A stretch of 56,376 nt of DNA from NCBI GenBank assembly GCA_964492825.1, contig CAZBLP010000004.1, forward strand, positions 1 through 56,376. The letters are read 5' to 3'. The stretch's first letter is position 1. The number at the start of each line of letters is the position of its first letter. Below the pieces are notes generated by a model that was given only the letters and a program-made list of their open reading frames with translations, was not told the origin of the DNA and searched no databases. Source of the stretch: an uncultured bacterium (lineage in GTDB: Bacteria; DYJV01). Below are positions 30,158 through 56,376 of this stretch, one piece after another. The position numbers were made by a program, and so were the translations under genes.

Positions 30158-30159
30158 TA

Positions 30160-32466: not shown

Positions 32467-32481
32467 AAGAGGAATAATAAA

Positions 32482-34464: not shown

Positions 34465-34504
34465 ATTTTTAAAATAGATAAGTTATTACAAACAGAGGTT
34501 TAAT

Positions 34505-35047
34505 ATGAATAAATTTGCAGAAGAGATTAGCAGTAAAAGCGGAGAAATTTTTAATCTGTGTTATCAATGTAAAAAATGTACTGCAGGTTGTCCTACAGCG
34601 GAGTTTATGGATATTAAGCCAAATGAAATCATAAGACACATTCAATATGGCAACAGAGACAAATTATTAACAAGTGAAGCTATTTGGCTCTGTGTTTCCT
34701 GTGACACATGCGGTGAAAGATGTCCGAATGATATAAAAATTTCAAAATTAATGGGAGCTTTGAGAAGAAAAGCAATTGAAGATAAAGTGGAAATAGCTGA
34801 TAAAGTCGGCTATGCATTTAACAGATCATTTGTTGAAAGTATAAAAAGATACGGCAGGGTTCATGAAGCTACATTTTTAATTTCATACAAATTAAAAACA
34901 AAAGATTTTTTTAGCGAAGCTGCTTTAAATGACATGAAAGTCGGTATAAAATTATTCATGAGAGGTAAGTTACCTCTTTTCCCAAAAAAAATAAAAGACA
35001 TGACTGCTATTAAAAACATATTTAAAAAATGTGTGCCAGAGATTTAG
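34505..35047 (+). CDS. hdrC: heterodisulfide reductase subunit C (HdrC2)
   Basis: CYQCKKCTAGCP and CVSCDTCGERCP, GRVHE. Confidence 0.88.
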   Translation: MNKFAEEISSKSGEIFNLCYQCKKCTAGCPTAEFMDIKPNEIIRHIQYGNRDKLLTSEAIWLCVSCDTCGERCPNDIKISKLMGALRRKAIEDKVEIADKVGYAFNRSFVESIKRYGRVHEATFLISYKLKTKDFFSEAALNDMKVGIKLFMRGKLPLFPKKIKDMTAIKNIFKKCVPEI

Positions 35048-35102
35048 TTTTTTTTATTTTTAGAGAGCATTAATAAAATTTAAAAAAACATCAGGAGTAA
35101 AA

Positions 35103-35927
35103 ATGGAACTGTCATATTATCCAGGTTGTACTGCTCATTCAACAGCAATAGAGTATGAAAACTCAATTGAAGAAGTTTTGAAAATTTTGGGAGTAACAAT
35201 TAAAGAAATAGAAGATTGGAATTGTTGCGGCTCAGGGCCTGCAAAAAATATAAGCGAAGACCTTGTTATAAACCTTTCTGCAAGAAATATAAAAATAGCT
35301 GAAAAAGAGGGCAAAGATCTTCTTATACCATGTGCAGGATGTTTTAATAGTTTGAAAAGATCTGAATATGCATTAAAAGACAATAGTAAAAAAGCTGAAA
35401 TAGAGAATAATGTTGATTTCAAATTTCAGGGAAATATCAACATAAAATATATTTTGGATACATTTATGGAAATAGGTATTGATAAAATAAAAGCAAATGT
35501 TAAAAAAGAGTTATCACAAATTAAAGCTGTTTGTTATTATGGATGTGCAATTTTAAGACCAAGCGAGGTTGTAACTTTTGACAATCCCGAACATCCTGAT
35601 TCAATGGATGAATTAATGAAAGCAATTGGGGTGAAAGTTCTTGATTGGCCGTCAAAGGTTGACTGCTGCGGCGGTGATGCAGCTCTTACCAATCCGGAGC
35701 TTGCATCAAAATTAATTGGTAAGATCGTTGATTATGCAAAAGAAGCCGGAGCAAACTGTATTGTTACGTCATGCGGATTATGCCAGGCAAATATTGATAC
35801 AAAACAGAGCACGGATAATCCGTTGCCTGTGTTATATTTTACTGAATTAATAGGTGAAGCTTTTCAGGTTTCAGATACAAGCAGTTGGTGGAAAAAACAT
35901 ATTGTGGATCCAAAAGGATTATTTTAA
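35103..35927 (+). CDS. hdrB: heterodisulfide reductase subunit B (HdrB2)
   Basis: YYPGC/WNCCG/CAGC and YYGC/DCCG/CGLC. Confidence 0.92.
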   Translation: MELSYYPGCTAHSTAIEYENSIEEVLKILGVTIKEIEDWNCCGSGPAKNISEDLVINLSARNIKIAEKEGKDLLIPCAGCFNSLKRSEYALKDNSKKAEIENNVDFKFQGNINIKYILDTFMEIGIDKIKANVKKELSQIKAVCYYGCAILRPSEVVTFDNPEHPDSMDELMKAIGVKVLDWPSKVDCCGGDAALTNPELASKLIGKIVDYAKEAGANCIVTSCGLCQANIDTKQSTDNPLPVLYFTELIGEAFQVSDTSSWWKKHIVDPKGLF

Positions 35928-35956
35928 ATTTTAATTAAAAAATTCGGAGAATTAAC

Positions 35957-38950: not shown

Positions 38951-39019
38951 AATATAAAGACATAATTAAGACTTTTAGAAATAAAAAAACAACTTGAAAC
39001 TGAATAAAGAGGTGTGAAT

Positions 39020-39448
39020 ATGGCAGATGAGAAATTTGAACCAAAATTAATTGCATTTTTGTGTCACTGGTGTACTTATACAGGAGCAGACCTTGCCGGT
39101 ACCACAAGACAGCAGTACCCGCCTAATATAAGAGTTGTACATCTTATGTGCTCAGGTGGTATAGACGTTGTCTATGTACTAAAATCTTTGCTTGAAGGTG
39201 CAGACGGTGTACTTATTGGTGGATGTCATCCAGGGGATTGTCATTATCAATCAGGAAATTTTAAAGCAAGAAGAAGGATTGCTATTTTAAAAAATATTCT
39301 AAAACAATTCGGTCTGGAAGATGACAGAGTTTGGCTAAGGTGGATAAGTGCAAGTGAAGGTAAAATGTTTGCAGATACAGTTACTGAATTTACCAATTTT
39401 TTAAAAGCCAAAGGACCTGCTAAATTGAAGTTAACATGGGATGCTTAA
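39020..39448 (+). CDS. mvhD: MvhD/FlpD [2Fe-2S] subunit
   Basis: FLCHWCTY, LMCSG, GGCHPGDCHY; start ATG 39020 or GTG 39014. Confidence 0.92.
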   Translation: MADEKFEPKLIAFLCHWCTYTGADLAGTTRQQYPPNIRVVHLMCSGGIDVVYVLKSLLEGADGVLIGGCHPGDCHYQSGNFKARRRIAILKNILKQFGLEDDRVWLRWISASEGKMFADTVTEFTNFLKAKGPAKLKLTWDA

Positions 39449-39508
39449 TTTTTTAGATAATTGTCAGTTAAATGTTTTTAAGTTTGAACTAAACATAGGA
39501 GGAAATAG

Positions 39509-40630
39509 ATGCCTGTTACAAATAAAGTAAATAACCTGGAAGGGGTTATAGATTACTTAAAAAAATTACTTGAAAATAATGTGGTAGATGAAATTTTAAT
39601 ACCTAAACTCAGCAGCTCAAAAGATAATTATATCCAGACTCTTGTCAGTTCACCTGACATGTTAGAAGGCTGTAATCCTTTTGCACCTGTTATCCCTATT
39701 CAAACAGGTAGGATTGCAAAAAACCTGACTTTTACAACATCTGGCAAAAAATTGCTTATTATTGCAAAACCATGCGAAATTAAAGCAATTGTTGAGCTAA
39801 CGAAATTTAAACAGGTAAATCTTGACAATTGTTACATAATTGCAGTTGATTGTATTGGGACTTATGATGTTAACGATTTTCAGGAAATTTTATTGAATAA
39901 TCAAGATTATATAGATAATTTTACTTCAAAATACAGCAGCGGTGAATTTAAACCTGTTAATGGTTTTTCATTTAGAAAATCTTGCTCAATGTGTGAAACA
40001 CCCTCAATATCATTGGAACTTGTTGATGGTGTTTTCGGATATTTCGCCACTTCAGGAAGTGAAATTTTCATTATTGCCAAAGATGATTCTCCTTTAAAAG
40101 AAACTTTTGAAAATCAAAATCTGGATTTGTCAAAAAGAGAAGATGTTATAAATAAACTTAAACAGGAACGATTAAAGAATAAAAATGAAATTTTAAATAA
40201 TTTCAGAGAAGAAACATCAAATCTCGAATCTTTACAAAAGGTATTTTCAAAATGTATTAGATGCCACAACTGTATGGTTGCCTGTCCAATATGTTACTGC
40301 AAGGAATGTGTTTTCAGAAGTCCTACCTTTGATCATTCAGCTGATATGATTACAGGTTGGGCAGAAAGAAAAGGAGCCTTGAGAATGCTCGAAAACACAT
40401 TAATGTTTCACCTTACAAGACTTAATCATATGTCAAGTTCCTGTATAGCCTGCGGATTATGCTCAAGTGCATGTCCCAATGATATAGATGTGGCAACTGT
40501 TTTTATCAGTGTTTCAGACAATGTTCAAAATATGCTCGATTATAAAGCTGGTGAAAGTTTTGACGAGCCTGCGCCAGTTACAACTTTTAGAGAAAACGAG
40601 CTTGTTGCAGAAGCAGGCACAAATGAATAA
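39509..40630 (+). CDS. FdhB/FrhB-family iron-sulfur (flavo)protein
   Basis: KPCEIKAIVEL, DCIG, CSMC, CIRCHNCMVACPICYCKEC, CIACGLCSSACP. Confidence 0.75.
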   Translation: MPVTNKVNNLEGVIDYLKKLLENNVVDEILIPKLSSSKDNYIQTLVSSPDMLEGCNPFAPVIPIQTGRIAKNLTFTTSGKKLLIIAKPCEIKAIVELTKFKQVNLDNCYIIAVDCIGTYDVNDFQEILLNNQDYIDNFTSKYSSGEFKPVNGFSFRKSCSMCETPSISLELVDGVFGYFATSGSEIFIIAKDDSPLKETFENQNLDLSKREDVINKLKQERLKNKNEILNNFREETSNLESLQKVFSKCIRCHNCMVACPICYCKECVFRSPTFDHSADMITGWAERKGALRMLENTLMFHLTRLNHMSSSCIACGLCSSACPNDIDVATVFISVSDNVQNMLDYKAGESFDEPAPVTTFRENELVAEAGTNE

Positions 40631-40658
40631 TTTTATAAATATTATAAATTAACCAAGC

Positions 40659-41453
40659 ATGGAGGATAAAATGAGTGAAGCAAAAAAACAGCAAATTAAC
40701 ATTGCTACCGGTGACAGACCTGTTCTTCCGGAAGGTTCAAAAGAGATACCGGTATATATAATGGGTAAAAAATATATGGTGCCTGAGACAATTACCATTC
40801 AGAAAGCAATTGAATATGCCGGATATAAATTTATTAGAGCATGCGGCTGCCGTGGCGGAATTTGTGGTGCTTGCGGAACTGTTTACAGAATATACGGAGA
40901 TTACAGATTAAATTTCGGTTTAGCATGCCAGACTGTTGTACAGGAAAATATGTATATTGCACAGATTCCCTTTTATCCTGCTAACAGGGCAAAATATAAT
41001 ATAAATGAAGTAGAAGCAGAAGCAGACACAATAATGGCACTTTATCCTGAAGTTTTAAAATGTGTAGGATGTAACACTTGTTCAAAAGCCTGTCCTATGG
41101 ATATAGATGTTATGGGATACATTAATGCTGCAATGAGAGGTGATGTTGAAAAAGTGGCAAAATTATCTTTTGACTGTATTCAATGTGGGTTATGCTCGTC
41201 AAGATGTCCTGCACAAATACAGCATTATCACGTAGCGCAACTTTGCAGAAGATTGTATGGTAAATATATTCTTCCTAAGGATACTTTTTTACAGGAAAGA
41301 AGCAAGGACATAGAAAACGGCAAATATGAAAATATGCTTGCTGAATTAAAACAATTACCCCTTGATGAACTTAAGAAAAAATATGTTGCAAGAGAAATGG
41401 AGCCAGCAACTCATGACGGCACATGGATGCCTCAGGAAACGGAATATTTGTAA
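40659..41453 (+). CDS. FrdB/SdhB-like iron-sulfur subunit ([2Fe-2S] + 2x[4Fe-4S])
   Basis: CGCRGGICGAC...LACQT; CVGCNTCSKACP; CIQCGLCSSRCP; start may be ATG 40671. Confidence 0.8.
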   Translation: MEDKMSEAKKQQINIATGDRPVLPEGSKEIPVYIMGKKYMVPETITIQKAIEYAGYKFIRACGCRGGICGACGTVYRIYGDYRLNFGLACQTVVQENMYIAQIPFYPANRAKYNINEVEAEADTIMALYPEVLKCVGCNTCSKACPMDIDVMGYINAAMRGDVEKVAKLSFDCIQCGLCSSRCPAQIQHYHVAQLCRRLYGKYILPKDTFLQERSKDIENGKYENMLAELKQLPLDELKKKYVAREMEPATHDGTWMPQETEYL

Positions 41454-41489
41454 AATTAAAAATCGAAAATTTAAATAAAGGAGCAAAAA

Positions 41490-43148
41490 ATGGGATACAC
41501 ACCTGAAATGAAAGAATTAATAAAAAAAGTTGAAGCTTCAAGACCTGCAAGGGTTGATAAAGCAAGAAACGGGGAAATGTTTCCTCCTTTGACACTTGAT
41601 CAGAGAGAAGAAGTTCTGAATAAATTCCATCCTGATTATAAATCTGTGGGAAGACGTGCAGTAAAAGTTGGTCCAAGCAAAGGAGAAATTTATCCTGACG
41701 AATTTGCAGATGTACTTGAAGCTCACAGTAGAATCGAACCAAATATAGATTTGGACACTCTTTTAAAATATGAAACAGATGTGCTTGTAATAGGCGGGGG
41801 AGGAGCCGGAAGTGCAGCTGCATTGCTTGCACAGGAGCAAGGATGCAAAGTAATTATAGCCACAAAACTTCGTCATGGTGATGCCAATACAGTGATGGCA
41901 GAAGGCGGTATTCAGGGTGCTACAAGAAAACCTGATTCCCCATATTATCACTACCTTGATGTAATGGGAGGCGGACACTTTACCAATGATCCAGAGCTTG
42001 TTGCTGCTCTTGCAAATGATGCTCCTCTTGTTATTAGATGGCTTGAAGATCTCGGAATGATGTTTGACAAAGATGAAAAGGGTAATTTAAAAACAAGGCA
42101 TGGCGGAGGAACATGCAGAAAAAGAATGCACTCAGCAGGTGACATGACAGGTTCAGAAATAATGAGAGTTTTAAGAGATGAAGTTAGAAACAGATGTGAT
42201 GATATAGATGTTCTGGAATTTACTCCTGCTGTTGAAATAGTTTTGGATGAGAACGGTAATGCTGCAGGTGCAGTATTATACAACATGGAAACAGAAGAAT
42301 TTTTTGTTGTAAAAGCAAAAGCAGTTATTATTGCCACAGGTGGTTACGGAAGACTTCATATTCAAGGTTTTGCAACAACCAATCACTATGGTGCCACAGC
42401 AGATGGTCTTATATTAGGTTACAGAGCGGGAGTGCCTTTGGCTTTTATGCATTCCACTCAATATCACCCAACAGGAGCTGCATTTCCCGAGCAAAATATT
42501 GGGCTTTTAATTACAGAAAAAGTAAGAGGATTAGGTGCCAATCTTTTAAATATAAACGGAGAGCAGTTTGTATTTGAAAGGGAGCCAAGAGATGTTGAAT
42601 CAGCTTGTATTATCAGAGAATGCCTTGAAAGAGAGCTCGGCATTGTGACTCCTACAGGTAGAGTCGGTGTATGGCTTGATTCTCCAATGATTGACATGCT
42701 TGAAGGTGCTGGAACAGTTGAAAAAGAACTACCTGCAAAATATATTCAGTTTAAAAGATACAACATTGATATTAGCAAAGAGCCTATGCTTGTTTTTCCA
42801 ACACTTCATTATCAAAACGGAGGCTTAAAAATAAAAGATTCTACTGAGACTAATGTACCGGGGTTATTTGCTGCAGGTGAGGCAAGCGGCGGAGTTCACG
42901 GCGAGAACAGATTAATGGGAAATTCTCTTCTTGATATTACAGTTTTTGGAAGAAGAGCTGGAAAAGCCGCAGGAGAATATGTAAAAAACGGAGTTAATAT
43001 TGGTAAATTAACTCTTGAACATATAAAGAAATATGAAGAAGAATTAAAAGAAGCAGGTATTGATACAGAAAGGCAATCTCCAATGTTGCTTCCTGATTAC
43101 ACAAGACCTGAAATAAAAAAAAGCCAACTCACTCATATAGTATGGTAA
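41490..43148 (+). CDS. FrdA/SdhA/TfrA-like flavoprotein (dicarboxylate active site, no covalent-FAD His)
   Basis: GGGGAG, ANTVMAEGG, QYHPTG, LITEKVRG, EPRD, LHYQNGG, VHGENRLMGNSL. Confidence 0.85.
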   Translation: MGYTPEMKELIKKVEASRPARVDKARNGEMFPPLTLDQREEVLNKFHPDYKSVGRRAVKVGPSKGEIYPDEFADVLEAHSRIEPNIDLDTLLKYETDVLVIGGGGAGSAAALLAQEQGCKVIIATKLRHGDANTVMAEGGIQGATRKPDSPYYHYLDVMGGGHFTNDPELVAALANDAPLVIRWLEDLGMMFDKDEKGNLKTRHGGGTCRKRMHSAGDMTGSEIMRVLRDEVRNRCDDIDVLEFTPAVEIVLDENGNAAGAVLYNMETEEFFVVKAKAVIIATGGYGRLHIQGFATTNHYGATADGLILGYRAGVPLAFMHSTQYHPTGAAFPEQNIGLLITEKVRGLGANLLNINGEQFVFEREPRDVESACIIRECLERELGIVTPTGRVGVWLDSPMIDMLEGAGTVEKELPAKYIQFKRYNIDISKEPMLVFPTLHYQNGGLKIKDSTETNVPGLFAAGEASGGVHGENRLMGNSLLDITVFGRRAGKAAGEYVKNGVNIGKLTLEHIKKYEEELKEAGIDTERQSPMLLPDYTRPEIKKSQLTHIVW

Positions 43149-46981: not shown

Positions 46982-47686
46982 TCAGACACTTTCATTATTC
47001 TTTAAAATATATCCTATACCTGGTGCAGACTCAATGACAACGTGATTTTTTAATTTCTTTCTCAAATGGTTAATATGAACATCAATTGTTCTTGACCAAT
47101 TATAAATATCTTTTCCTTTCCAAAGATTTTCTTTAATTTCATTTCTGGAGCATATTCTATCACTGTTTTCAATTAGAAACATTAAAAGATTAAATTCTGT
47201 TCTTGTTAAATTGATTTTTTCATTATTAATATAAGCTTCTCTTTTCTGAGGATAAATAGTTAATGATTTAATGTTGACTACATCTTTTGAATTTAGTTTA
47301 TTATCTTTAAAATTATATCTTCTTAAACAACTCTTTATTCTCGCTGAAAGTTCCAGAAAATTAAAAGGCTTAACAATATAATCATCTGCTCCGCATTCAA
47401 GCCCAAGAACTTTGTCAGATACAGCATCTCTTGCAGTTAACATAATAACAGGTATATCCATATTTTCTTTTCTTATTTTATTGCATAATTGAATTCCGTC
47501 TATATCCGGGAGATTTAAGTCAAGTATTATAATATCAGGATTAGCTCCGGAAATTAAATCATAGGCTTCAAGGCCTGTTTCAGCAGTAATCACATCATAT
47601 CCTTCCAATTTCAGATTTGCAGAAATAACCTTTAAAATATCCGTATCATCATCTATAACTAAAATTAATATATCATTTTGTTCCAT
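46982..47686 (-). CDS. OmpR/PhoB-family response regulator
   Basis: IDDD, ILDLNLP phospho-Asp, MLTA, DYIVKPF, LTRTEF, RTIDVHINHLRKK, GIGY. Confidence 0.93.
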   Translation of the reverse strand: MEQNDILILVIDDDTDILKVISANLKLEGYDVITAETGLEAYDLISGANPDIIILDLNLPDIDGIQLCNKIRKENMDIPVIMLTARDAVSDKVLGLECGADDYIVKPFNFLELSARIKSCLRRYNFKDNKLNSKDVVNIKSLTIYPQKREAYINNEKINLTRTEFNLLMFLIENSDRICSRNEIKENLWKGKDIYNWSRTIDVHINHLRKKLKNHVVIESAPGIGYILKNNESV

Positions 47687-49286
47687 TTTTTGCCTCTAAA
47701 TTAAATTTTTTATTAAAAATAATTATAAACTTTATTCTGTTTTTGTCTATTAATTTTACTTTTATATCTCCTTTATGTGCTAACATTATACCTTTTGCAA
47801 TGGCAAGCCCAAGCCCGCTTCCTTTTTCTTTTGAAGATTTGAGATGTTTGTATTTTAAGAAAAATGTTGATATATTTTTTTCATCTAGTTCATGATCAGT
47901 ATTGTTGCTAATTGAAATTTTTATTGATTCATCTGTTTCATCAATAGAAATTGTAATTTTATCATTTTCAGGTGAAAATTTTATTGCATTATGTAAAATA
48001 TTTATTAAAACCTGATTTATTCTTTTTCTGTCAAGATAGACAAAAAACTCTTTTTTAAAATTTATTTTTTCAAATTCTATATTTTTTTCATCTGCATACC
48101 CTTTAAAAAAAACAAGAATTTCTTCAATAATATTGTTTAGCTTTTCCTTTTTTAATTCCAGCTCCAATCTACCAATTTCAATTCGTGCAATATCTATTAG
48201 GTTATTAACCATTAAAATAAGGTTTTTAATGTTTTTATCTATTATTTCAATAAACTCTTTGTTCTCTTTTTTGGTCAAAACTTTTGAAAGATATTCAATG
48301 CCTCCCTGAATTGTTGTAAGAGGTGTTCTTAACTCATGGGATACAGTAGCTAAAAAGTCAGTTTTTAATTTATTTTTTCTTTTTAGTTCTTCAGTTGCTT
48401 TTTCAATCTCTTTCTGCATAATTTCATGGTTATTTTTAATAATATTAGCCATATCAAAAAAATTATTTTTTAATTCTCCTATTTCATCCTTTCTTGATGA
48501 TTTCTCAAATTCAGTTAAATAATTTTCTTTAAATCTCTCAATACGCTCCTTTATTGAATTAACAGGTTTAATAACAAGAAAATAATTTAAAAAATATATT
48601 ATTAAAATTGTAAAAAAAATTATAAGCAGTGAAGAGAAAAAGTAGTATTTTTTTATTATACACAACTTTTTATCTACATCAGACAAAGGGAGTAAAACAC
48701 TTATACAACCTCTCAATTCCCCTATATTATATCCTTGATACATATGACAGGTAAGACAAGATTTTTTTATATATAGAGGTCTAATCAATCTGTAAAATTT
48801 TTTATGCATTAGATACTCAACCTGAGTCACCTCTTTGGCTTTTTTCCTGTCAAAAATCCTCAAAGCATAACTTTCAGTGTCATCAGGAGCATTTGCAGGA
48901 TTAATTAAAAAATTACTTGATAGCTTGAAAAAATATTTTCCGTTTTTAAAAGCATAGTCGGAAAGCTCTCTTGTAACCATAGCTGGATTTCTTTTTAGAA
49001 AAATTTTATCTCCGCATTTTATAAAAGGTTTACTCAAGTAAGGATTAATATAAAGTCCTTTTCTTTTTAAAACATAAACCCCTCCAATATCAGCTATCCA
49101 TTTTCTTGTTAATATTATTTGATCAACTAAAATCTCTGCTTGTTTATAAACTTCTTCATATAAAAATTTTTTCTCTTGTTTAAAAAACATATAAAAGATT
49201 CCTCCTAAAATTAAGGAAAGAACAGTTATAATCCCCATTAGATACTTAAAACTAAGAGAAAAATAAAATTTTTTAATTATTTGCAT
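47673..49286 (-). CDS. sensor histidine kinase with periplasmic DUF3365/Tll0287-like heme-c domain
   Basis: TM1, NPANAPD...CLTCH (CxxCH), TM2, HAMP, VSHELRTPL, NAIKF, GSGLGL. Confidence 0.88.
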   Translation of the reverse strand: MQIIKKFYFSLSFKYLMGIITVLSLILGGIFYMFFKQEKKFLYEEVYKQAEILVDQIILTRKWIADIGGVYVLKRKGLYINPYLSKPFIKCGDKIFLKRNPAMVTRELSDYAFKNGKYFFKLSSNFLINPANAPDDTESYALRIFDRKKAKEVTQVEYLMHKKFYRLIRPLYIKKSCLTCHMYQGYNIGELRGCISVLLPLSDVDKKLCIIKKYYFFSSLLIIFFTILIIYFLNYFLVIKPVNSIKERIERFKENYLTEFEKSSRKDEIGELKNNFFDMANIIKNNHEIMQKEIEKATEELKRKNKLKTDFLATVSHELRTPLTTIQGGIEYLSKVLTKKENKEFIEIIDKNIKNLILMVNNLIDIARIEIGRLELELKKEKLNNIIEEILVFFKGYADEKNIEFEKINFKKEFFVYLDRKRINQVLINILHNAIKFSPENDKITISIDETDESIKISISNNTDHELDEKNISTFFLKYKHLKSSKEKGSGLGLAIAKGIMLAHKGDIKVKLIDKNRIKFIIIFNKKFNLEAKNGTK

Positions 49287-49309: not shown

Positions 49310-49864
49310 TTAAAAAGTCAAAATAAAATTTTCAATAAGCTGAATAACATGCTCATAAAATTTTATATTCTCTTTTTTAACTTTTTTATTAAGTTCAGGG
49401 ATCCAGCTTTTCAGATGGGTATTTTCAAAGGAAATTAACTTTTCAATTTTGTTTTCAGAACTCAAATAATGTGCAAATTCAAGTATGGTAGGAAGGTAAT
49501 CAGGCATATCTCTGTCAGCAAGTTCCACACCTTCTTCATAATATAACTTTTCAAGAGACAATAGGAACTTAGCTCTGTCTTCAGCTCTATCGCTTTTTAC
49601 TATATAATGAGATTCATATAATGGAGTTTTCAAATCAAAATTGGTTGTGTATGTAACCTGTAACTCCTCTATATCTGTAAAATCTTTTCTCATTAAATTG
49701 ATTAGCTTTTCACTTCCGTCTCGCCTGAAATATTCTTTAAGATTATCAAAAAGCCAACCAGAAATGATAGCTTCAGCTATTTCTTTGTCAGGATAACTTA
49801 TTGCCATTGATAAAAGTTTATAATTTACTGTTTTGTTAATGCTTTCATCCATAACTATCTCCAA
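49310..49864 (-). CDS. TorD/DmsD/NarJ-family molybdoenzyme chaperone (delta subunit)
   Basis: YTTNFD...PLYES...MPDYLPTILEF; directly after beta subunit; start may be a few codons downstream. Confidence 0.8.
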   Translation of the reverse strand: MEIVMDESINKTVNYKLLSMAISYPDKEIAEAIISGWLFDNLKEYFRRDGSEKLINLMRKDFTDIEELQVTYTTNFDLKTPLYESHYIVKSDRAEDRAKFLLSLEKLYYEEGVELADRDMPDYLPTILEFAHYLSSENKIEKLISFENTHLKSWIPELNKKVKKENIKFYEHVIQLIENFILTF

Positions 49865-49875
49865 AAGATAAAGAT

Positions 49876-49948
49876 TGATTAGGATTTAGTTTCAGGGATT
49901 AGGATATAGTTTTTTCACTAAATCCTATCCCCTAAATCCCAAATCCTA
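49876..49948. repeat. intergenic inverted array of GGATT(T)A/TAAATCC heptamers
   Basis: GATTAGGATTTAG...GGGATTAGGATATAG versus CTAAATCCTATCCCCTAAATCCCAAATCCTA. Confidence 0.55.
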
Positions 49949-49987
49949 TTTTTTATTTCTCATTATTCATTTTTAATTGAGTTATAT

Positions 49988-50905
49988 TTACAACTTCCAT
50001 GTTGGAAAACCTGTTAATACATCAACAAGTTCTGATTGGGATTTTTCTCTTTCAGTTTCAAGAATTTTTTTAATTTCTTTCACTTTTTTACCAAAAAGTC
50101 CCTCCAAATATGTATAATCAACTCTTTCTCCACTGCTGTTTCCCTTATCATCTATTTTATGCTGAGCTACCATAACAGGTGGAATATAAAACACTTTTGG
50201 TTTTGTATTAAATTCGGAAAGAAGTGGAACAGCAACCTTATATTTTTTAACAAGTTTGTATACAGGAGATTCTTTATCATTTAATTTACCAAAAAATCTT
50301 GCTTTCCCAGGACATGTAATAACACAGGCAGGTGGCTCTCCTTTTTCAAGTCTTGGGAAACAAAAAATACACTTCTCAGCATTATCCATGTTTTTATTAA
50401 AAAATATTCTTTTATACGGACATGCATCTATACAATCTCCCGCACCTTCACATTTTTCACTGTCAATAAGTACAAAACCTTCTTTGGTCTTGTAAATTGC
50501 TTTTGCAGGACATGCCTTCATACAAGCAGGATCTTCACAATGCATACAGATCATAGGCAAATAAAAAAACCATTCATCTGCAACATTCATCCCATTACCC
50601 ATATCCTCGTAATAGTTTGGACTATTTTTAAGGTTTATACCAATATTAGGCAAACCTTTTCCTTTATTGCTGTGTAATTTGGAGTAATCAAATTTAGGTA
50701 CATTCTCATAATCTTTGTCATCCATCTTCATTTTCTTTTTTGTTTTCTCAAGCCAATTGTATGGATATCCCTGCCCCGGACGTGTCTCTACAATGGTAAA
50801 CCACATATGCTGTGCACCATCTCTATTGCTCCATAGCATTTTACATGCAACAGTGCATGCTTGACAACCAAGACATTTATTTAAATCTATTACCATACCG
50901 TACAT
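49988..50905 (-). CDS. DMSO-reductase family type II beta (Fe-S) subunit, NarH/PcrB/SerB-like
   Basis: CLGCQACTVACK, WFFYLPMICMHCEDPACMKACP, CEGAGDCIDACPY, CIFCFPR...CVITCP. Confidence 0.9.
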   Translation of the reverse strand: MYGMVIDLNKCLGCQACTVACKMLWSNRDGAQHMWFTIVETRPGQGYPYNWLEKTKKKMKMDDKDYENVPKFDYSKLHSNKGKGLPNIGINLKNSPNYYEDMGNGMNVADEWFFYLPMICMHCEDPACMKACPAKAIYKTKEGFVLIDSEKCEGAGDCIDACPYKRIFFNKNMDNAEKCIFCFPRLEKGEPPACVITCPGKARFFGKLNDKESPVYKLVKKYKVAVPLLSEFNTKPKVFYIPPVMVAQHKIDDKGNSSGERVDYTYLEGLFGKKVKEIKKILETEREKSQSELVDVLTGFPTWKL

Positions 50906-50929
50906 GACAACCTCCTATAATTTATGATT

Positions 50930-53900
50930 TTACATAATTTTTTTAATTTCTACTGAAGTATCACATTCATTTCCAGTAACACCCCAGAAATTCCAACCAT
51001 ATTTCAAATGATAAGAAGGTGCTTTTGTTTCAGGATACTTTACAGATTGAGTAGGTTTTGGCCTAATTGGAGTAATACCGTTAAACCATCCTTTTATTGT
51101 GGTGAACATCTCAGCACCGTTTGCAACTCTTACTTCTCCCTCTTTAATGCCAGCCATAACTTTTGCCCTGCAAATCATTTCTCCGAATTCATTGAATATT
51201 TTAATTTTATCTCCGTCATTTATTCCTCTTTTTAAAGCATCTGCTTTACTCATTAATGCAATTGTCTCACCTCTTTGTAGCCTTAGAAGAATGTCCACAT
51301 CTCTAAATGTTGAATGTGTTCCCCATCTGCCGTGAGGAGTATTCAATTTTAACGGAGCTTTTGTTCTCTTATCAGGAAGTCTGTCAAATTCAGGTTCCTT
51401 GTATATTGGCAGCTCATTTCTCAAATCAAGGAAATATGAATGATCAATGTAAAACTGTTGCCTTCCTGTTAATGTTTTGGCACCAATCATACCAAGATAT
51501 TTTTTACCGAAAAATTTAGGAACCTTCACTTTCCCACCTATAGTAATTTTTTCTTTGGCAAGTTTTCCACCTCCTGGCCATGGCAAAAGTCCTTCCACAT
51601 TTTCAACAAAAGGAGTAAGAGGTCTTCTGCTCTGAGCAGCTGGAAATGGAACAGGAGCTTTTCTAATCAATTTCACAATTCCATCAATGTATCCTTTTAC
51701 ATCTCCTTTAAAAAGTTTGTTTTCTATTATTTGCTGAAGTTCTGGAGCATAGTTGTTTTTATGTGCTTTATACTCATCAGGATTAGGATAAATTATAGGG
51801 CTTTTAGTTAGGATAAATTTGGCTGATTTAACATCAGTGTCCATTTTCCCATTAGCTGTAAATACAGAATAAACTTTTGTAAAATCAATGGTTTGTTTTT
51901 TTTCTGTATCTTTCCATTTTCCATCCCACCTGCCTGTTGCTACCAATTTATGGGAATAATTCTGTATTCCTTTTGCAATTAATTTAAAGATTTCATAATC
52001 TGTTTTTGATTCATATAGAGGTTTTATTACAGGATTGAATGCCTGCAGATATACATGCATAGGAGTAGTTTCAACATCAAATTTTTCGTACCAAGTAGCA
52101 GCCGGTAATACTACATCACAAAAAAGTGCCGTAGAGTTAATCCTAAAATCAATTGTTACCAAAAATTCAAGTTTTTCAGGATCTTTGAACCATTTTAACG
52201 TATTATATCCGCCTTTACCCTGGTTTAAGAAATTTGACCTCCAAATTATCATTGCTCGTGGCTTTTTCGGTGGTTTTGGATAAACAGGTATCCATTTTTT
52301 TGCAAGAGATTTAATAAGCAGATAATAATTGTAAGCCCAGCCATCATCTTTATTAGCACTAACAGGTAAACCATTAGGTAGTCTTTTCAATTTGCCTGAT
52401 TCTATATCCTTTACTATTTCAGGATATGTTTTGCCAAGTTTATACAGTTCTGCATCATAATGTGACCAAACAAAAAGAGTAGCATTTTGAGGTCTTGCTT
52501 TTAGTATCATTCCATATTTTCCAAGACCGCTTAGCCATACTTTATATTGCCCTGTATATTGGCTGAAACCTGAACCGGTTTTCCCAACATTACCAGTAAG
52601 AGCAAGCATTAATATCATTGAACGGTTATTAATATCATTGTTAAACCAGTGGTTAACTCCACCGCCACCAATAATCATTGCAGGTTTTTTACTAACAAGG
52701 TCAAGAGCAAATTCTTTTAATGTCGCCTCACCTATACCGGTTATTTGAAAAACTTTACCAGGTGTAAATTTTGAAACTTCTTTTTTAAGTTTGTTAAAAA
52801 CAGTTTCTACCTGAACTTTCATTCCGTTCTTAAGAGTAATTTCTCCTTCATAAAATAGAGAAGGATCAATATTGTATTTTTTCAGATTAAGTGTATCTCT
52901 GTTATCACCAAGAGTTCCTGGTGGATTAACTATCATCATTGAATTATTATCATAAACAAAAAGTTTAAAAGCATTTCCACCTGATTTCACATCAGCTTCA
53001 GTGAGGAATTTACCATTATCTTTTCTAATAATAAAAGGCAAATCAGTAAAAGTTTTAACATATTCATGGTCAAAACTGTGGCTTGAAATTAAATAATTAA
53101 TAACACCATTTGCAAATGCTGCATCAGTACCAGGCTTTGGCGAAATAAAAACATCGCCCATTCTTGCTGTAGCATTGTAATCTGTCATAATAGTATAAAT
53201 TTTTGTGCCTCTGTATTTGGATTCTTGCAATAGATGAGCTGCTGCAAGTCTTGATTCAGCAACATTTGCTCCCCAGAAAATAAGAAGTTTTGCATTTTTC
53301 CAGTCAGCTTCTTCACTTTCTTCTGTTTGAACTGCCCATGTCATTGGCTCTCCTGGAGGTAAATCACAGTACCAATCATAAAAACTCAATGGGCCACTTG
53401 CTCCCATAATTTTACAAAGCCTGTAGCCTGCACCTGCTGATACATAACTGTAAGCAGGAATTGCAGAAAAAAATACAACTTCATCTGAACCATGCTTTCT
53501 TGAAATATCAGTAAGTTTTTTGGAAATCAGGCTTATTGCTTCGTCCCATGTTGCTCTTCTGAATTTCCCTTCTCCTCTTTTCCCAACTCTTATTAAAGGA
53601 TGTTTCAATCTCATATCACCGTAAACATATCTGAGATAACTTGCACCTCTTAAACAACCACGTGGATTATAATATTTACCGAGAACTTTGTCATAAGTGT
53701 CGTAATCACCTGCCGGAGCAATTTCTACAATGTATTTGTCTCCTTTTACAAAAGCATTCCAGCCACAAGCTTGAGTACAGTTTGCAGAACATACACTTCT
53801 TATAACTTTGTCATAATCAAATACTTTTCTTAATTTGTCTTCGCTAACTTTGTGAAGTTTTCTGCCCACAAATTTTCCTGCATAAAGATTTTCAGAAATT

Positions 53901-53986
53901 AATGGTAAAGCTGTAAGCCCTGCTAATCCTCCTGCAACTGTTCCTAAAAACTTACGTCTTGTAATTTTTCTACTGTTTCCTGACAT
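50930..53986 (-). CDS. Tat-exported DMSO-reductase family type II molybdoenzyme alpha subunit (periplasmic NarG-like)
   Basis: TRRKFL Tat motif; CSANCTQAC...RGC FS0; SFYDWYCDLPP with Asp Mo ligand; TPHGRWGTHS. Confidence 0.88.
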   Translation of the reverse strand: MSGNSRKITRRKFLGTVAGGLAGLTALPLISENLYAGKFVGRKLHKVSEDKLRKVFDYDKVIRSVCSANCTQACGWNAFVKGDKYIVEIAPAGDYDTYDKVLGKYYNPRGCLRGASYLRYVYGDMRLKHPLIRVGKRGEGKFRRATWDEAISLISKKLTDISRKHGSDEVVFFSAIPAYSYVSAGAGYRLCKIMGASGPLSFYDWYCDLPPGEPMTWAVQTEESEEADWKNAKLLIFWGANVAESRLAAAHLLQESKYRGTKIYTIMTDYNATARMGDVFISPKPGTDAAFANGVINYLISSHSFDHEYVKTFTDLPFIIRKDNGKFLTEADVKSGGNAFKLFVYDNNSMMIVNPPGTLGDNRDTLNLKKYNIDPSLFYEGEITLKNGMKVQVETVFNKLKKEVSKFTPGKVFQITGIGEATLKEFALDLVSKKPAMIIGGGGVNHWFNNDINNRSMILMLALTGNVGKTGSGFSQYTGQYKVWLSGLGKYGMILKARPQNATLFVWSHYDAELYKLGKTYPEIVKDIESGKLKRLPNGLPVSANKDDGWAYNYYLLIKSLAKKWIPVYPKPPKKPRAMIIWRSNFLNQGKGGYNTLKWFKDPEKLEFLVTIDFRINSTALFCDVVLPAATWYEKFDVETTPMHVYLQAFNPVIKPLYESKTDYEIFKLIAKGIQNYSHKLVATGRWDGKWKDTEKKQTIDFTKVYSVFTANGKMDTDVKSAKFILTKSPIIYPNPDEYKAHKNNYAPELQQIIENKLFKGDVKGYIDGIVKLIRKAPVPFPAAQSRRPLTPFVENVEGLLPWPGGGKLAKEKITIGGKVKVPKFFGKKYLGMIGAKTLTGRQQFYIDHSYFLDLRNELPIYKEPEFDRLPDKRTKAPLKLNTPHGRWGTHSTFRDVDILLRLQRGETIALMSKADALKRGINDGDKIKIFNEFGEMICRAKVMAGIKEGEVRVANGAEMFTTIKGWFNGITPIRPKPTQSVKYPETKAPSYHLKYGWNFWGVTGNECDTSVEIKKIM

Positions 53987-54304: not shown

Positions 54305-54868
54305 TTATTTTAAATTTTCTTTAAAAATAGTTATTTTTTTACCTTTCTCCAATTTGTCAACAAGTTTTTTGTATAATTTTTTCTCTTTTCCAAGTGCAAT
54401 ATAGTCTCTTGCCGTAACTCTATCAACTCCTTTATGTTTTTTCACATAATCATCAATTTCCTCTGTAGTGACTTTAACCTTTTTAGAAATGTTTTCAATA
54501 AAATATTGCCTTAGAACTATGGTTGTCTGATAAGAATTGTCTTTTTTTAAGAAACTGTGTTTTTTAAAATTTTCCTTCATGGTTTTTCTTCCAAAATAAC
54601 CTTTTTCCCTTGCGTCTTCGATAATAAGAGTTCTTTCTATTAAATGATTCAACATTTTTAATTTTTCATCCAAGGTTGAAGGCTTTTTATTAAAAAGATT
54701 AAGAAAGTCGATATAATCCTGATAAGTAATTTCCATATTATTTATCTTTGCAACAATAATTTTCTCACTTGATTTAACAGGTGCATTGTTTTTTTTGTCC
54801 ACAGACGCTGCCAACAAAACAGGCAATATTACAACAATAAGAATAGTGTTAAAAATTTTTATTTTCAT
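54305..54868 (-). CDS. secreted SurA N-terminal-domain-like protein
   Basis: signal peptide; IVAKINNMEIT...LNHLIERTLIIEDAREKG; no PPIase core seen. Confidence 0.6.
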   Translation of the reverse strand: MKIKIFNTILIVVILPVLLAASVDKKNNAPVKSSEKIIVAKINNMEITYQDYIDFLNLFNKKPSTLDEKLKMLNHLIERTLIIEDAREKGYFGRKTMKENFKKHSFLKKDNSYQTTIVLRQYFIENISKKVKVTTEEIDDYVKKHKGVDRVTARDYIALGKEKKLYKKLVDKLEKGKKITIFKENLK

Positions 54869-55018: not shown

Positions 55019-55055
55019 CAACCTTAAAAATAAGCAAGTAAAGGAGGTGTGTAAA

Positions 55056-55508
55056 ATGGCTGATGAAGAAAAAAAAGAAGATTTGTCAAGAAGAGATTTT
55101 ATGTCCAATTTTGCAGCTGGTATTGGTATAGCAGCAGTTGGAGTAACTTCCGCAGTCTATGGTTTCAAATACCTTGTTCCCCCTTCTAAGAAAAAGAAAG
55201 AAGTAAAAGTTTTAATGGCTAAAGCTAATGAAATTAAGCCTGGAGAAGCAAAAGAATTTTTTGACGGACAGGGTAGAAAAGCTCTGCTTGTTAATCAAAA
55301 TGGCAAAATTAAAGCTTTTTCAAAAATCTGCACTCATCTTGGATGTGAGGTTGAATGGAAACCTGAAGAAAATATTTTCTTCTGTCCCTGTCATTTAGGC
55401 AAATTTGATGCAAACGGTAAAAACATTGCAGGTCCTCCGCCTCGTCCTCTTGATGAGTTTAAAGTAGAGGTAAAGGATAATTTTGTTTTTGTTACTTTAA
55501 TAGTTTAA
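55056..55508 (+). CDS. Rieske [2Fe-2S] protein of a Rieske/cytochrome b complex
   Basis: SRRDFM Tat anchor, CTHLGC and CPCHLG boxes; GGAGG RBS favours ATG 55056. Confidence 0.93.
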   Translation: MADEEKKEDLSRRDFMSNFAAGIGIAAVGVTSAVYGFKYLVPPSKKKKEVKVLMAKANEIKPGEAKEFFDGQGRKALLVNQNGKIKAFSKICTHLGCEVEWKPEENIFFCPCHLGKFDANGKNIAGPPPRPLDEFKVEVKDNFVFVTLIV

Positions 55509-55523: not shown

Positions 55524-56376
55524 ATGATTAATGCTCAAAATATGAGTACATGGGAAAAATTTAAAGCAGTTGTGCTTGACGAAGATCTGCCTGAACATAT
55601 GAAAATATGGTGGTGGTGTCTTGGAGGAGTGCCTGCTGTTCTTCTTTTAATATTGATAATTACCGGGATTCTCCTTGCAATGAATTATTCTCCTACAATC
55701 AGCGGTGCCTATGAAAGCGTAAATTACATTACCAACAATATAAGATATGGATGGTGGTTAAGAGCTATTCATAAATGGTCAGCAGAGTTAATGGTAGTTA
55801 CTGTTTCATTGCATGTTATAAGAGTGTTTTTTACTCGCGCTTATACAAAACCAAGAGAATATGTATGGATGTCAGGGGTTCTACTTTTACTTATGACACT
55901 ATTTGCAGGTTTTACAGGTTATTCTTTGCTTTATACCCAGAAATCTTATTGGGCAGTTACAGCTGGTACAAATTTGGCCGGGAAAATTGCCATTGTAGGT
56001 CCATTCTTGCAAAAATTGCTAATTGCAGGTGACTCTTTTAATAAATTCACTTTAAGCAGATTCCTGATTTTACACGGTGCAGTTGTTCCTGCTGTAATAG
56101 GCGGTATAATTTTTATTCACATAATTCTTCTGAGAAAAGTTGGAGTAAGTGAGTTAAATGGAGGAGGCAAAACATATAAATTTTATCCCGACCATATTAT
56201 GACTGAAGTTATTATAGGTTTAATGTTGCTTTTCTTTATGACTGTTCTTGCAATAGTTTTTCCTTTAGAACCTGGAGTAAAAGCCAATCCTCTTGTTACT
56301 CCGCTGCATATTAAACCTGAGTGGTATTTTTATCCTATGTTTAAGTGGATAAAATTAACCTCACAATGGATAGGAT
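55524..56376 (+). CDS. cytochrome b/b6 (fused b6 + subunit IV), truncated by window end
   Basis: hand-translated open frame from ATG 55524 (AGGAGG RBS): WWWCLGG, IHKW, LHVI, LHGA, IHII, IKPEWYFYP; absent from the ORF track because the stop lies outside the window. Confidence 0.92.
   Translation, partial: MINAQNMSTWEKFKAVVLDEDLPEHMKIWWWCLGGVPAVLLLILIITGILLAMNYSPTISGAYESVNYITNNIRYGWWLRAIHKWSAELMVVTVSLHVIRVFFTRAYTKPREYVWMSGVLLLLMTLFAGFTGYSLLYTQKSYWAVTAGTNLAGKIAIVGPFLQKLLIAGDSFNKFTLSRFLILHGAVVPAVIGGIIFIHIILLRKVGVSELNGGGKTYKFYPDHIMTEVIIGLMLLFFMTVLAIVFPLEPGVKANPLVTPLHIKPEWYFYPMFKWIKLTSQWIG

What the first reader, a model, noticed from the sequence alone, without database searches (positions are those of the whole stretch)
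49310..53986. Periplasmic NarG-like enzyme with an all-Cys FS0 motif and undetermined substrate
The alpha subunit has a Tat signal and the NarG-type Mo-ligand segment SFYDWYCDLPP. Its FS0 motif is CSANCTQAC (C-x3-C-x3-C) rather than the H-x3-C-x3-C of NarG/PcrA/SerA, or the C-x3-D-x3-C I recall for Nitrospira NxrA. No chlorite dismutase, nitrate transporter or nitrite reductase is in the window. Type II DMSO-reductase family members act on nitrate, nitrite, (per)chlorate, selenate, DMS and hydrocarbons, so the substrate cannot be read from sequence. This may be a poorly sampled clade.
Basis: partly seen in the sequence, partly recalled or inferred. Interest (0 to 1): 0.7.

Follow-up and report, generated by a model that had tools for sequence, protein, structure and literature searches.

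The report
Periplasmic nitrate-reductase-like enzyme, all-cysteine cluster
This hydrothermal-vent bacterium carries an exported molybdenum enzyme that most likely reduces nitrate outside the cell; it belongs to a small, unstudied branch of the nitrate-reductase family that replaces two residues textbooks treat as fixed.

Summary
On the minus strand lie a Tat-exported molybdopterin alpha subunit (50930-53986), a four-cluster Fe-S beta subunit (49988-50905) and a NarJ-type chaperone (49310-49864). The alpha subunit has FS0 = CSANCTQAC and SFYDWYCDLPP. The window holds no cld, narK or nitrite reductase.

The enzyme belongs to a tight, isolated clade of 34 full-length clusters (48-100% identity). 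It collapses to one full-length representative at 50% identity; the next relative scores half as much. Every full-length member has Cys instead of His as first FS0 ligand, and Tyr where Nar has Glu and PcrA has Trp. The periplasmic nitrite-oxidoreductase lineage shares the first-ligand Cys and the Tyr, and an NJ tree places the clade as its sister (73% bootstrap).

The substrate is not unreadable. In 6 of 11 relatives' loci the operon sits beside NrfHA, HAO-type multihaem cytochromes and/or Hcp, including in the nitrate ammonifier Ammonifex degensii. No locus has cld. The nearest relative shows an HAO-like octahaem gene just beyond the window's end.

Best reading: a periplasmic nitrate reductase fed by the adjacent Rieske/cytochrome b complex and controlled by a haem-c Cache sensor kinase. 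I rate it a new variant of a known kind, biochemically untested.

The parts
50930..53986 (-). Alpha (catalytic) subunit, 1018 aa. Tat-exported Mo-bisPGD enzyme with Asp208 as Mo ligand and an N-terminal FS0 [4Fe-4S] site.
   Evidence: PF00384 and PF01568; TIGR03479 scores 704 bits against a cut-off of 985. Best solved relatives: PcrA 2e-147, NarG about 1e-112. AF2 model pLDDT 86.4; Foldseek to PcrA gives TM 0.90 normalised by target length.
53945..53962 (-). Twin-arginine motif TRRKFL (residues 9-14).
   Evidence: Read directly. R10 and R11 are invariant in 85 homologues.
53765..53791 (-). FS0 motif C66-x3-C70-x3-C74 (CSANCTQAC). The fourth ligand, C111, lies at 53654-53656.
   Evidence: Cys at ligand 1 in all 34 full-length clade members; His in all Nar, pNar-like, PcrA and ClrA sequences.
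53354..53386 (-). Mo-ligand segment SFYDWYCDLPP, with D208 equivalent to E. coli NarG D222.
52544..52546 (-). Tyr481 in YTGQYKVW. It aligns with PcrA gate Trp461 and the Nar Glu.
   Evidence: Alignment to PcrA wild type (YIGQWK) and the W461E mutant (YIGQEK), and to NarG (YVGQEK). Invariant Tyr in the clade. Kuenenia NxrA has WAGNYK.
49988..50905 (-). Beta subunit, 305 aa. Fifteen Cys in four groups, as expected for three [4Fe-4S] clusters plus one [3Fe-4S].
   Evidence: TIGR03478 330 bits; PF13247. PcrB 8e-81. Cys positions listed.
49310..49864 (-). Delta subunit, a NarJ/TorD-type assembly chaperone, 184 aa.
   Evidence: PF02613 2.4e-11; TIGR00684 narJ 54.6 bits; TIGR03482 52 bits.
47673..49286 (-). 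Sensor histidine kinase with a periplasmic haem-c Cache (Tll0287/DUF3365) domain (CLTCH at residue 177). It starts 23 nt downstream of delta.
   Evidence: PF11845, HisKA and HATPase_c. The same kinase type flanks the operon in Ammonifex, Syntrophomonas, a Delta MAG, L004 and L095. Homologous over its full length to the Ammonifex kinase.
46982..47686 (-). OmpR-type response regulator. Its gene overlaps the kinase gene.
   Evidence: PF00072 and PF00486.
54305..54868 (-). Exported SurA-N-like protein of 187 aa, upstream of alpha. Possibly a periplasmic chaperone for the complex.
   Evidence: Weak SurA_N hits. 32% identical (1e-25) to the gene in the same position in L002. A 194-aa gene sits there in L095.
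55047..55508 (+). Rieske [2Fe-2S] protein with a Tat-type N-terminus, divergent from the reductase operon.
   Evidence: PF00355; cytochrome b6f/bc1 Rieske models.
55524..56376 (+). Cytochrome b, unsplit, with a PEWY motif. It is cut off by the window end.
   Evidence: PF00033 1.3e-47; translation. In L095 the full gene (335 aa) is followed by a 537-aa HAO-family octahaem cytochrome.

Best explanation
The locus encodes a periplasmic, Nar-related respiratory nitrate reductase.

Assembly (inferred by homology): the NarJ-like delta loads Mo-bisPGD into alpha in the cytoplasm. The alpha-beta dimer is then exported by the Tat system using alpha's TRRKFL signal.

Catalysis (inferred): nitrate is reduced to nitrite at an Asp208-ligated Mo centre. 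Electrons reach it through one [3Fe-4S] and three [4Fe-4S] clusters in beta, then an all-cysteine FS0 cluster in alpha.

Electron supply (inferred from synteny): there is no haem-b gamma subunit and no NarI. Electrons most likely come from menaquinol through the divergently encoded Rieske/cytochrome b complex, as proposed for haloarchaeal pNarGH-NarBC. The HAO-family octahaem cytochrome that follows cytochrome b in the closest relatives would take nitrite on to ammonium. The cluster would then be a compact periplasmic nitrate-ammonification module.

Regulation (inferred): expression is probably set by the co-transcribed haem-c Cache histidine kinase and OmpR regulator, sensing NO or redox state.

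What is shown: gene content, motifs, clade membership and conserved neighbourhoods.
What is inferred: substrate, electron route and regulation.
For: 1. Family and fold. Alpha, beta and delta match type II DMSO-reductase subunits. The AF2 model superposes on PcrA and NarG.

2. The second sphere is Nar-like. Alpha keeps N69 (NarG N52), R113 (NarG R94; Lys in PcrA), W76 (His in PcrA), H446 (NarG H546) and FYDWYCD (residue roles from PMC8301774).

3. Neighbourhoods of clade members.
- Ammonifex degensii KC4: Rrf2, Hcp, NapH-like, alpha, beta, two small TM proteins, NarJ, Cache-haem kinase, regulator, HPP, ResB, CcsA, NrfH, NrfA, GlnA.
- Syntrophomonas erecta: NrfA-like, ResB, CcsA and the same kinase/regulator.
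- Delta MAG, L004 and L095/L096: Rieske, cytochrome b and an 8-haem HAO-family cytochrome, plus Hcp in two of them.
- Archaeoglobi-like MAG: HAO-like cytochrome plus NrfC and NrfD.
- None of the 11 loci has cld.

4. Ammonifex degensii is known, from my own knowledge of its description, to grow by reducing nitrate to ammonium.

5. Both flanking lineages in the tree, Nar/pNar and periplasmic NXR, act on the nitrate/nitrite couple.

6. Haloferax pNar has the same Rieske/cytochrome b linkage.

7. A signalling-type sCache_haem (DUF3365/Tll0287) receptor has kinetic and spectroscopic properties like those of known NO sensors (bioRxiv 10.64898/2026.02.01.703092).
Against: - No member of the clade has been assayed. 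I found none in the literature searched.
- Five of the 11 relatives' loci show no nitrogen-cycle neighbour.
- The gate residue is Tyr, not the Glu found in every Nar sequence compared here.
- The His-to-Cys change at FS0 inactivates E. coli NarG (PMC8301774; PDB 3ir5 is that mutant). Nar rules therefore do not transfer directly.
- Scores lie below the curated cut-offs of both TIGR03479 and TIGR01580.
- I could not check whether Ammonifex has another nitrate reductase.
- The octahaem gene lies outside the window.
Confidence: 0.62

Rival explanations
1. It is a (per)chlorate or other halogen-oxyanion reductase. It would work without chlorite dismutase, with chlorite removed chemically by reduced sulfur, as proposed for Archaeoglobus fulgidus and thermophilic Firmicutes.
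For: - The best solved relative is PcrA.
- An aromatic residue (Tyr481) occupies the PcrA Trp461 gate position, next to the conserved Phe202 and Tyr203.
- A Cld-linked plasmid enzyme from Alisedimentitalea also has Tyr at that position (AGQYRMR) and falls in the same supergroup.
- Hosts are sulfidic-vent anaerobes and thermophiles, the setting in which Cld-independent perchlorate reduction was described (PMC6299022).
Against: - No cld in the window or in any of 11 related loci.
- The neighbours are nitrogen-cycle genes.
- The gate residue is Tyr, not Trp. The FS0 second sphere is Nar-like (Arg and Trp) rather than PcrA-like (Lys and His).
- A. fulgidus AF0176 was not found among the clade's named members.
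- Nar enzymes reduce chlorate anyway, so chlorate activity alone would not discriminate.
Confidence: 0.12
2. It is a nitrite oxidoreductase, or a reversible nitrite/nitrate enzyme, related to the periplasmic NXR of Nitrospira, Nitrospina and anammox bacteria.
For: - It shares with the NXR lineage a Cys, not His, as first FS0 ligand, and Tyr in G[QN]YK.
- The NJ tree puts the clade as sister to the group containing Kuenenia NxrA, with 73% bootstrap.
Against: - Carriers are anaerobes: Ammonifex, Syntrophomonas, Archaeoglobi, Korarchaeota and Desulfobacterota-like MAGs.
- The neighbours are reductive modules: NrfHA, HAO-like cytochromes and Hcp.
- No NxrC-type gamma subunit is present.
- Only 27-33% identity to NXR-lineage sequences, against 38-41% to pNar-like enzymes and PcrA.
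- The second FS0 ligand is Cys, not the Asp of Kuenenia NxrA.
Confidence: 0.07
3. It acts on some other substrate of the type II family (selenate, DMS, hydrocarbons, iodate). The nitrogen-cycle neighbours would then be coincidental or reflect co-regulation.
For: - Half of the related loci carry no informative neighbour.
- The family is catalytically versatile (PMC10100899).
- Both clade-specific substitutions lie on the electron and substrate path.
Against: - The FYDWYCD segment, Asn69 and His446 are the Nar/Pcr oxyanion set. The hydroxylase and Clr/Ser/Ddh-like representatives have quite different Mo-ligand segments.
- EbdA is a much weaker match (2e-73).
- No hydrocarbon, selenium or sulfur-specific genes are adjacent in any locus.
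Confidence: 0.12

Closest known systems
Archaeal-type periplasmic nitrate reductase (pNarGH), e.g. Haloferax mediterranei NarGH with NarB (Rieske) and NarC (cytochrome b)
   Same: - Tat-exported Asp-ligated alpha.
- Short beta of about 305-350 aa.
- NarJ-like chaperone.
- Rieske and cytochrome b genes adjacent to the reductase genes.
- FYDW motif and Asn in the FS0 loop.
   Different: - About 38% identity, and not monophyletic with it.
- Haloferax has His at FS0 and Glu at the gate.
- Haloferax has an EbdC-related gamma-like gene. The window has none.
- Here an HAO-type octahaem cytochrome is part of the bc operon.
Perchlorate reductase PcrAB of Azospira suillum (PDB 4ydd, 5ch7)
   Same: - Best sequence and fold match (2e-147; TM 0.90 on the target).
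- Periplasmic alpha-beta architecture.
- Phe-Tyr gate pair conserved, with an aromatic residue at position 461.
   Different: - Tyr instead of Trp461.
- Cys instead of His at FS0.
- Arg and Trp instead of Lys and His near FS0.
- No cld and no PcrC.
- Never groups with PcrA in bootstraps.
Periplasmic nitrite oxidoreductase NxrA (Kuenenia stuttgartiensis, PDB 7b04) and its metagenomic relatives
   Same: - First FS0 ligand is Cys.
- Tyr stands in the G[QN]YK segment.
- Sister relationship in the NJ tree at 73% bootstrap.
- Tat export.
   Different: - Low similarity (2.4e-51; 27-33% identity).
- Kuenenia has Asp as second FS0 ligand.
- NxrA is larger, about 1150 aa.
- NXR has an NxrC subunit.
- The physiological direction is probably opposite.
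Cytoplasmic respiratory nitrate reductase NarGHI (E. coli, PDB 1q16)
   Same: - SFYDWYCDLPP segment.
- Asn52, Arg94, Trp and His546 equivalents.
- NarJ chaperone.
   Different: - About 34% identity, and 230 residues shorter.
- Exported rather than cytoplasmic.
- No NarI.
- Cys in place of His49; the engineered H49C/H50C change inactivates E. coli NarG (PMC8301774).
- Tyr in place of the gate Glu.

Membership tests
Type II (Asp-ligated) DMSO-reductase / NarG-like CISM family | Asp Mo ligand in a conserved (F/Y)-x-x-x-x-D segment of the alpha subunit | tested here: met
   D208 in SFYDWYCDLPP aligns with NarG D222 and PcrA D170. It is invariant in 85 homologues.
Type II (Asp-ligated) DMSO-reductase / NarG-like CISM family | FS0 ligand pattern H-x3-C-x3-C-xn-C. 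The His is said to be fully conserved in subfamily II (PMC8840923, PMC8301774). | tested here: not met
   The spacing is kept, but the first ligand is Cys66. The same departure occurs in the NXR lineage and in a few unstudied lineages. The published rule is therefore too strict, and this is not grounds for exclusion.
Type II (Asp-ligated) DMSO-reductase / NarG-like CISM family | Four-cluster Fe-S beta subunit and a NarJ/TorD-type chaperone encoded alongside | tested here: met
   Beta: PcrB 8e-81 and 15 Cys in four groups. Delta: PF02613.
Type II (Asp-ligated) DMSO-reductase / NarG-like CISM family | Curated NCBIfam cut-offs for TIGR03479 (alpha) and TIGR03478 (beta) | tested here: not met
   Alpha 704 bits against 985; beta 330 bits against 481. 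Both are clear homologues that lie outside the curated subfamily.
Type II (Asp-ligated) DMSO-reductase / NarG-like CISM family | Gamma subunit: haem-b EbdC/SerC/NxrC type, or NarI | tested here: not met
   No such ORF in the window or in any related locus. Relatives have either Rieske/cytochrome b or two small TM proteins, one of them DUF2231-like.
Respiratory nitrate reductase NarG (TIGR01580) | Curated score cut-off, and Glu at the substrate-tunnel gate (YVGQE) | tested here: not met
   431 bits against 1084. Tyr481 replaces the Glu.
Respiratory nitrate reductase NarG (TIGR01580) | Nitrate-reducing activity | not testable with these tools
   Only context evidence is available: NrfHA, HAO-like cytochromes and Hcp as neighbours.
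Perchlorate reductase PcrA | Aromatic gate Phe164/Tyr165/Trp461, with a linked chlorite dismutase | tested here: not met
   Phe and Tyr are present, but Trp461 is Tyr. No cld in the window or in 11 related loci.
Periplasmic nitrite oxidoreductase NxrA (Kuenenia/Nitrospira type) | C-x3-D-x3-C FS0 motif, a G-N/Q-Y-K segment, an NxrC partner, and monophyly with known NxrA | tested here: inconclusive
   First-ligand Cys and the Tyr are shared. The second ligand is Cys rather than Asp. No NxrC is present. The clade is sister to, not inside, the NXR-containing group, with 73% NJ bootstrap.

The most novel reading that the evidence does not exclude
The clade is a surviving intermediate between Nar/Pcr-type reductases and periplasmic nitrite oxidoreductases. 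Its all-Cys FS0 and Tyr gate would give properties no studied Nar has. Examples: a low-potential S=1/2 FS0, real reversibility between nitrate and nitrite, or a preference for another oxyanion such as perchlorate or iodate at high temperature. It would work in a gamma-less supercomplex with a Rieske/cytochrome b complex and an HAO-type octahaem nitrite reductase.
Probability: 0.15. Interest if true: 0.75.

Novelty: new variant of a known kind. Interest (0 to 1): 0.5.

Why it matters
Reviews state that the His ligand of FS0 is conserved in all type II molybdoenzymes, and the engineered His-to-Cys change kills E. coli NarG. A natural, widespread thermophile and vent clade that runs on an all-Cys FS0 shows that the rule is not general. 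It offers a natural system for asking what the His ligand is for: cluster potential, spin state or cofactor insertion.

The same clade carries a Tyr at the gate residue that separates nitrate from perchlorate reductases. It also appears to sit between the Nar and NXR lineages, which bears on how nitrate reduction and nitrite oxidation evolved from one another.

In practice, these genes are annotated only as 'molybdopterin-dependent oxidoreductase'. If they are nitrate reductases, nitrate ammonification is under-counted in Ammonifex-like Firmicutes, Archaeoglobi, Korarchaeota, Thermoproteota and vent Desulfobacterota-like bacteria.

Tried and rejected
1. The genome-contig scan with the clade alignment chose patterns that were too general (FYDWYCD). 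It gave reference sequences but no species list for the clade.

2. Literature searches for the motif strings, for Ammonifex nitrate reductase and for NarG-H49C found nothing specific. Dridge 2006, Martinez-Espinosa 2007 and Lucker 2010 are not held.

3. Is A. fulgidus AF0176 (perchlorate-induced) or F. placidus Ferp_0311 in the clade? Neither name appears among the clade clusters, so I treat them as outside. I could not fetch their sequences to prove it.

4. Taxonomy of the window. Exact-sequence look-up of ten window-encoded proteins (nine housekeeping proteins and the beta subunit) gave no organism names. RpoD's nearest named relatives are only about 51% identical Deltaproteobacteria and Syntrophobacteria MAGs. 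The organism remains an unnamed vent lineage.

5. No Moco riboswitch or any Rfam family lies upstream of alpha or anywhere in the window. There are no tRNAs.

6. Promoter and terminator scans were uninformative in this AT-rich DNA.

7. The AF2 model's coordinates are not exposed, so funnel distances could not be measured.

8. No RNA runs hold this sequence.

9. I rejected the hydrocarbon-hydroxylase reading: EbdA is a weak match and the Mo-ligand segment differs.

Full report
**1. What is there**

The minus strand between 46982 and 54868 carries, in order:
- a 187-aa exported SurA-N-like protein (54305-54868);
- a 1018-aa molybdopterin alpha subunit (50930-53986);
- a 305-aa Fe-S beta subunit (49988-50905);
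- a 184-aa NarJ-type chaperone (49310-49864);
- a sensor histidine kinase (47673-49286) and an OmpR-type regulator (46982-47686).

Gaps between alpha, beta, delta and the kinase are 24, 123 and 23 nt, and the regulator gene overlaps the kinase gene. No terminator-like site was found on that strand. A single transcription unit is plausible but is an inference.

Divergently, a Rieske protein (55047-55508) and a cytochrome b (55524 to the window end, truncated) are encoded.

- TRRKFL (residues 9-14);
- C66-SAN-C70-TQA-C74 plus C111;
- S201-FYDWYCDLPP with D208.

Beta has 15 Cys in four groups, as expected for three [4Fe-4S] clusters and one [3Fe-4S]. No gamma subunit (haem-b type or NarI) is encoded.

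**2. Rest of the window**

Pfam scans of essentially all ORFs of at least 100 aa show housekeeping genes, glnA with a PII gene and a sigma-54 activator, and a large Hdr/MvhD-like cluster. There is no chlorite dismutase, no NarK and no nitrite reductase.

The sequence is held by hydrothermal-vent metagenome runs. Its RpoD has unnamed relatives at 70-91% identity, then only about 51% to Deltaproteobacteria and Syntrophobacteria MAGs. GC content is about 30%.

**3. A discrete clade**

The 5.8-billion-protein search gave 37 clusters at 48-100% identity, 34 of them full-length at about 1007-1060 aa. Identity then drops sharply to 39%.

In the library of 50%-identity representatives the whole clade is one full-length entry, Ammonifex degensii P0027 at 1223 bits. 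The next protein scores 621 bits.

Named members come from:
- Ammonifex degensii, Thermodesulfitimonas and Syntrophomonas erecta;
- Desulfoplanes, Desulfonatronovibrio, Ca. Desulfaltia and Thermodesulfobacteriota;
- an Archaeoglobus sp., Pyrodictium, Thermoproteota, Korarchaeota and Ca. Methanodesulfokora.

All are annotated only generically. I found no paper that characterises a member.

**4. Two clade-wide substitutions**

In an alignment with pNar-like, cytoplasmic Nar, Haloferax NarG, Ideonella ClrA and Azospira PcrA, every clade member has two features.
- C[AS][AG]NCTQ[AS]C, where all the others have H-x3-C-x3-C.
- YTGQY[KR]VW, where Nar-type enzymes have YVGQE and PcrA has YIGQW. This is the Trp461 gate residue: the PDB W461E mutant aligns as YIGQEK.

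Otherwise the FS0 and active-site surroundings are Nar-like. Alpha keeps Asn69 (NarG N52), Arg113 (R94; Lys in PcrA and Haloferax), Trp76 (His in PcrA), His446 (H546; Asp in Haloferax) and Phe202-Tyr203. Residue roles are taken from PMC8301774.

[quoted passage not shown] It also states that His-to-Cys abolishes E. coli NarGHI activity (PMC8301774). The best-scoring NarG chain in PDB is in fact the H49C mutant 3ir5.

**5. The motif is unusual but not unique**

Scanning the 150 best 50%-representatives shows other Asp-ligated lineages with a non-His first ligand and Tyr at the same gate position.
- The periplasmic NXR lineage: P0400 and P0414 match Kuenenia NxrA 7b04 at 489 and 445 bits, and P0377 groups with them in the tree. 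A further member of that group, P0395, has His at the gate.
- An unstudied group: P0356, P0364 and P0379.
- A group with Asp or Asn at that ligand, which includes a Cld-linked plasmid enzyme of Alisedimentitalea.

Kuenenia NxrA itself reads CSPNDTHAC and WAGNYK.

**6. Phylogeny**

Trees were neighbour-joining with Kimura distances on about 870-900 trimmed columns.
- The clade is monophyletic in 100% of bootstraps.
- It is never inside the pNar-like, haloarchaeal or PcrA groups, nor inside cytoplasmic Nar.
- With NXR-lineage and other representatives added, the non-His lineages other than the clade form a 100% group.
- The window's clade is sister to that group in 73% of 200 bootstraps.
- Raw identity is nevertheless highest to pNar-like enzymes (41%), PcrA (39%) and Haloferax NarG (38%). 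It is 27-33% to NXR-lineage sequences.
- The AF2 model (pLDDT 86.4, pTM 0.88) matches PcrA best, then NarG, EbdA and NXR.

I read this as a short-branched lineage near the Nar/NXR split. NJ cannot settle the question.

**7. Function from context**

Eleven related loci were read.
- Ammonifex degensii KC4: Rrf2, Hcp, NapH-like, alpha, beta, a 79-aa and a 161-aa membrane protein, NarJ, Cache-haem kinase, regulator, HPP, ResB, CcsA, NrfH, NrfA, GlnA.
- Syntrophomonas erecta: NrfA-like, ResB, CcsA, the same kinase and regulator, then the operon.
- A Deltaproteobacteria MAG: CRP, regulator and kinase; Rieske, cytochrome b, an 8-haem cytochrome, a monohaem c, a SurA-like protein, alpha, beta, delta, Hcp.
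- L004 (alpha 83% identical): kinase, alpha, beta, delta, regulator, Rieske, cytochrome b, an 8-haem cytochrome.
- An Archaeoglobi-like MAG: the operon, then HAO-like and tetrahaem cytochromes, NrfC, NrfD and CcsA.
- L095/L096 (beta at least 90% identical): the window's exact layout. A 537-aa multihaem cytochrome follows cytochrome b, and Hcp follows the regulator.

The 8-haem proteins belong to the HAO family. Their best PDB match is the Ignicoccus octahaem protein 4qo5 at 7e-30, with HAO at 1e-18. Epsilonproteobacterial Hao is listed among the recently identified dissimilatory nitrite reductases (PMC10949509).

Five loci, mostly archaeal, have no informative neighbour. None of the eleven has cld.

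The kinase's sensor is the DUF3365/Tll0287 'sCache_haem' domain. Its signalling-type member behaves like known NO sensors.

Haloferax pNar provides a precedent for the Rieske/cytochrome b linkage.

**8. Verdict**

The clade is distinct and uncharacterised, and it has a real departure from the family's FS0 rule. But the substrate is not beyond inference. Nitrate reduction within a periplasmic nitrate-ammonification module is the best-supported reading (about 0.6). The rivals are a Cld-independent (per)chlorate reductase, an NXR-like reversible enzyme, or another oxyanion.

The missing transporter is expected for a periplasmic enzyme. The missing nitrite reductase is most likely just beyond the window's end.

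I rate it a new variant of a known kind, of moderate interest. It would make a good natural experiment on the FS0 His ligand and the Nar/Pcr gate residue, and it is a likely under-annotated nitrate reductase of thermophiles.

Noticed in passing
L001:14052-14779; L005:14102-14820; L006:14028-14757; L088:4619-5328; L092:6971-7701; L093:14070-14823; L094:14101-14837: In the Firmicute and archaeal members, two small membrane proteins sit between beta and the chaperone. One is about 72-82 aa with 2 TM helices. The other is about 152-171 aa with 4 TM helices, an H-x4-H motif in the first helix of the four copies translated (L001, L005, L006, L088), and one weak DUF2231 hit. They replace the Rieske/cytochrome b genes of the window's form. 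They look like an undescribed membrane anchor or quinol-oxidising module for a type II enzyme.
   Followed up: partly
L091:3002-8531 (Alisedimentitalea scapharcae plasmid NZ_CP123588.1): A chlorite-dismutase-linked, PcrA/ClrA-like reductase of 848 aa. It has Asn, not His or Cys, at the first FS0 ligand position, and Tyr at the gate position (AGQYRMR). It groups with metagenomic P0359, which has Asp at that ligand.
   Followed up: partly
proteins P0356, P0364, P0379: A further unstudied lineage of Asp-ligated enzymes, 850-902 aa, with PcrA as best solved relative for P0356 (the one searched). It has an all-Cys C-x3-C-x3-C FS0, a GQY segment and altered Mo-ligand segments (YDFNGD, YTQNGD, YDMNGD). 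It is more evidence that 'His is fully conserved in subfamily II' does not hold.
   Followed up: no
window 29729-43148 (+): A large cluster of heterodisulfide-reductase-like genes. It includes HdrB/C-like CCG and Fe-S proteins, three HdrA-like FAD/Fe-S proteins (442, 660 and 997 aa), an MvhD/FlpD protein (39014-39448) and a 552-aa FAD_binding_2 protein (41490-43148). This suggests a flavin-based electron-bifurcating complex in this anaerobe.
   Followed up: no
window 13235-16802: glnA (13235-14647, -) with a PII gene (14693-15037, -), next to a GAF-domain sigma-54 activator (15300-16802, +). This is an ammonium-assimilation and regulation unit that would receive the product of nitrate ammonification. 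In Ammonifex, glnA directly follows nrfA.
   Followed up: no
window about 28150-28320: GC skew changes sign here, from about -0.2/-0.3 over 18-28 kb to about +0.2 over 28-36 kb. The switch falls at a divergent gene pair: trigger factor and ClpP on the minus strand, fumarase on the plus strand. It may only reflect gene orientation, or it may mark a replication landmark.
   Followed up: no
window 4671-6812 (+): A 713-aa protein combining PD40/WD40-like beta-propeller repeats with a GH114 glycoside-hydrolase domain. This is an unusual fusion for a vent anaerobe.
   Followed up: no
L093:15615-17518 (Ca. Methanodesulfokora washburnensis contig): In this korarchaeal member the operon is followed directly by a MobA-like nucleotidyltransferase, then TatA and TatC. 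The cofactor-finishing and export machinery is thus encoded with the enzyme.
   Followed up: no
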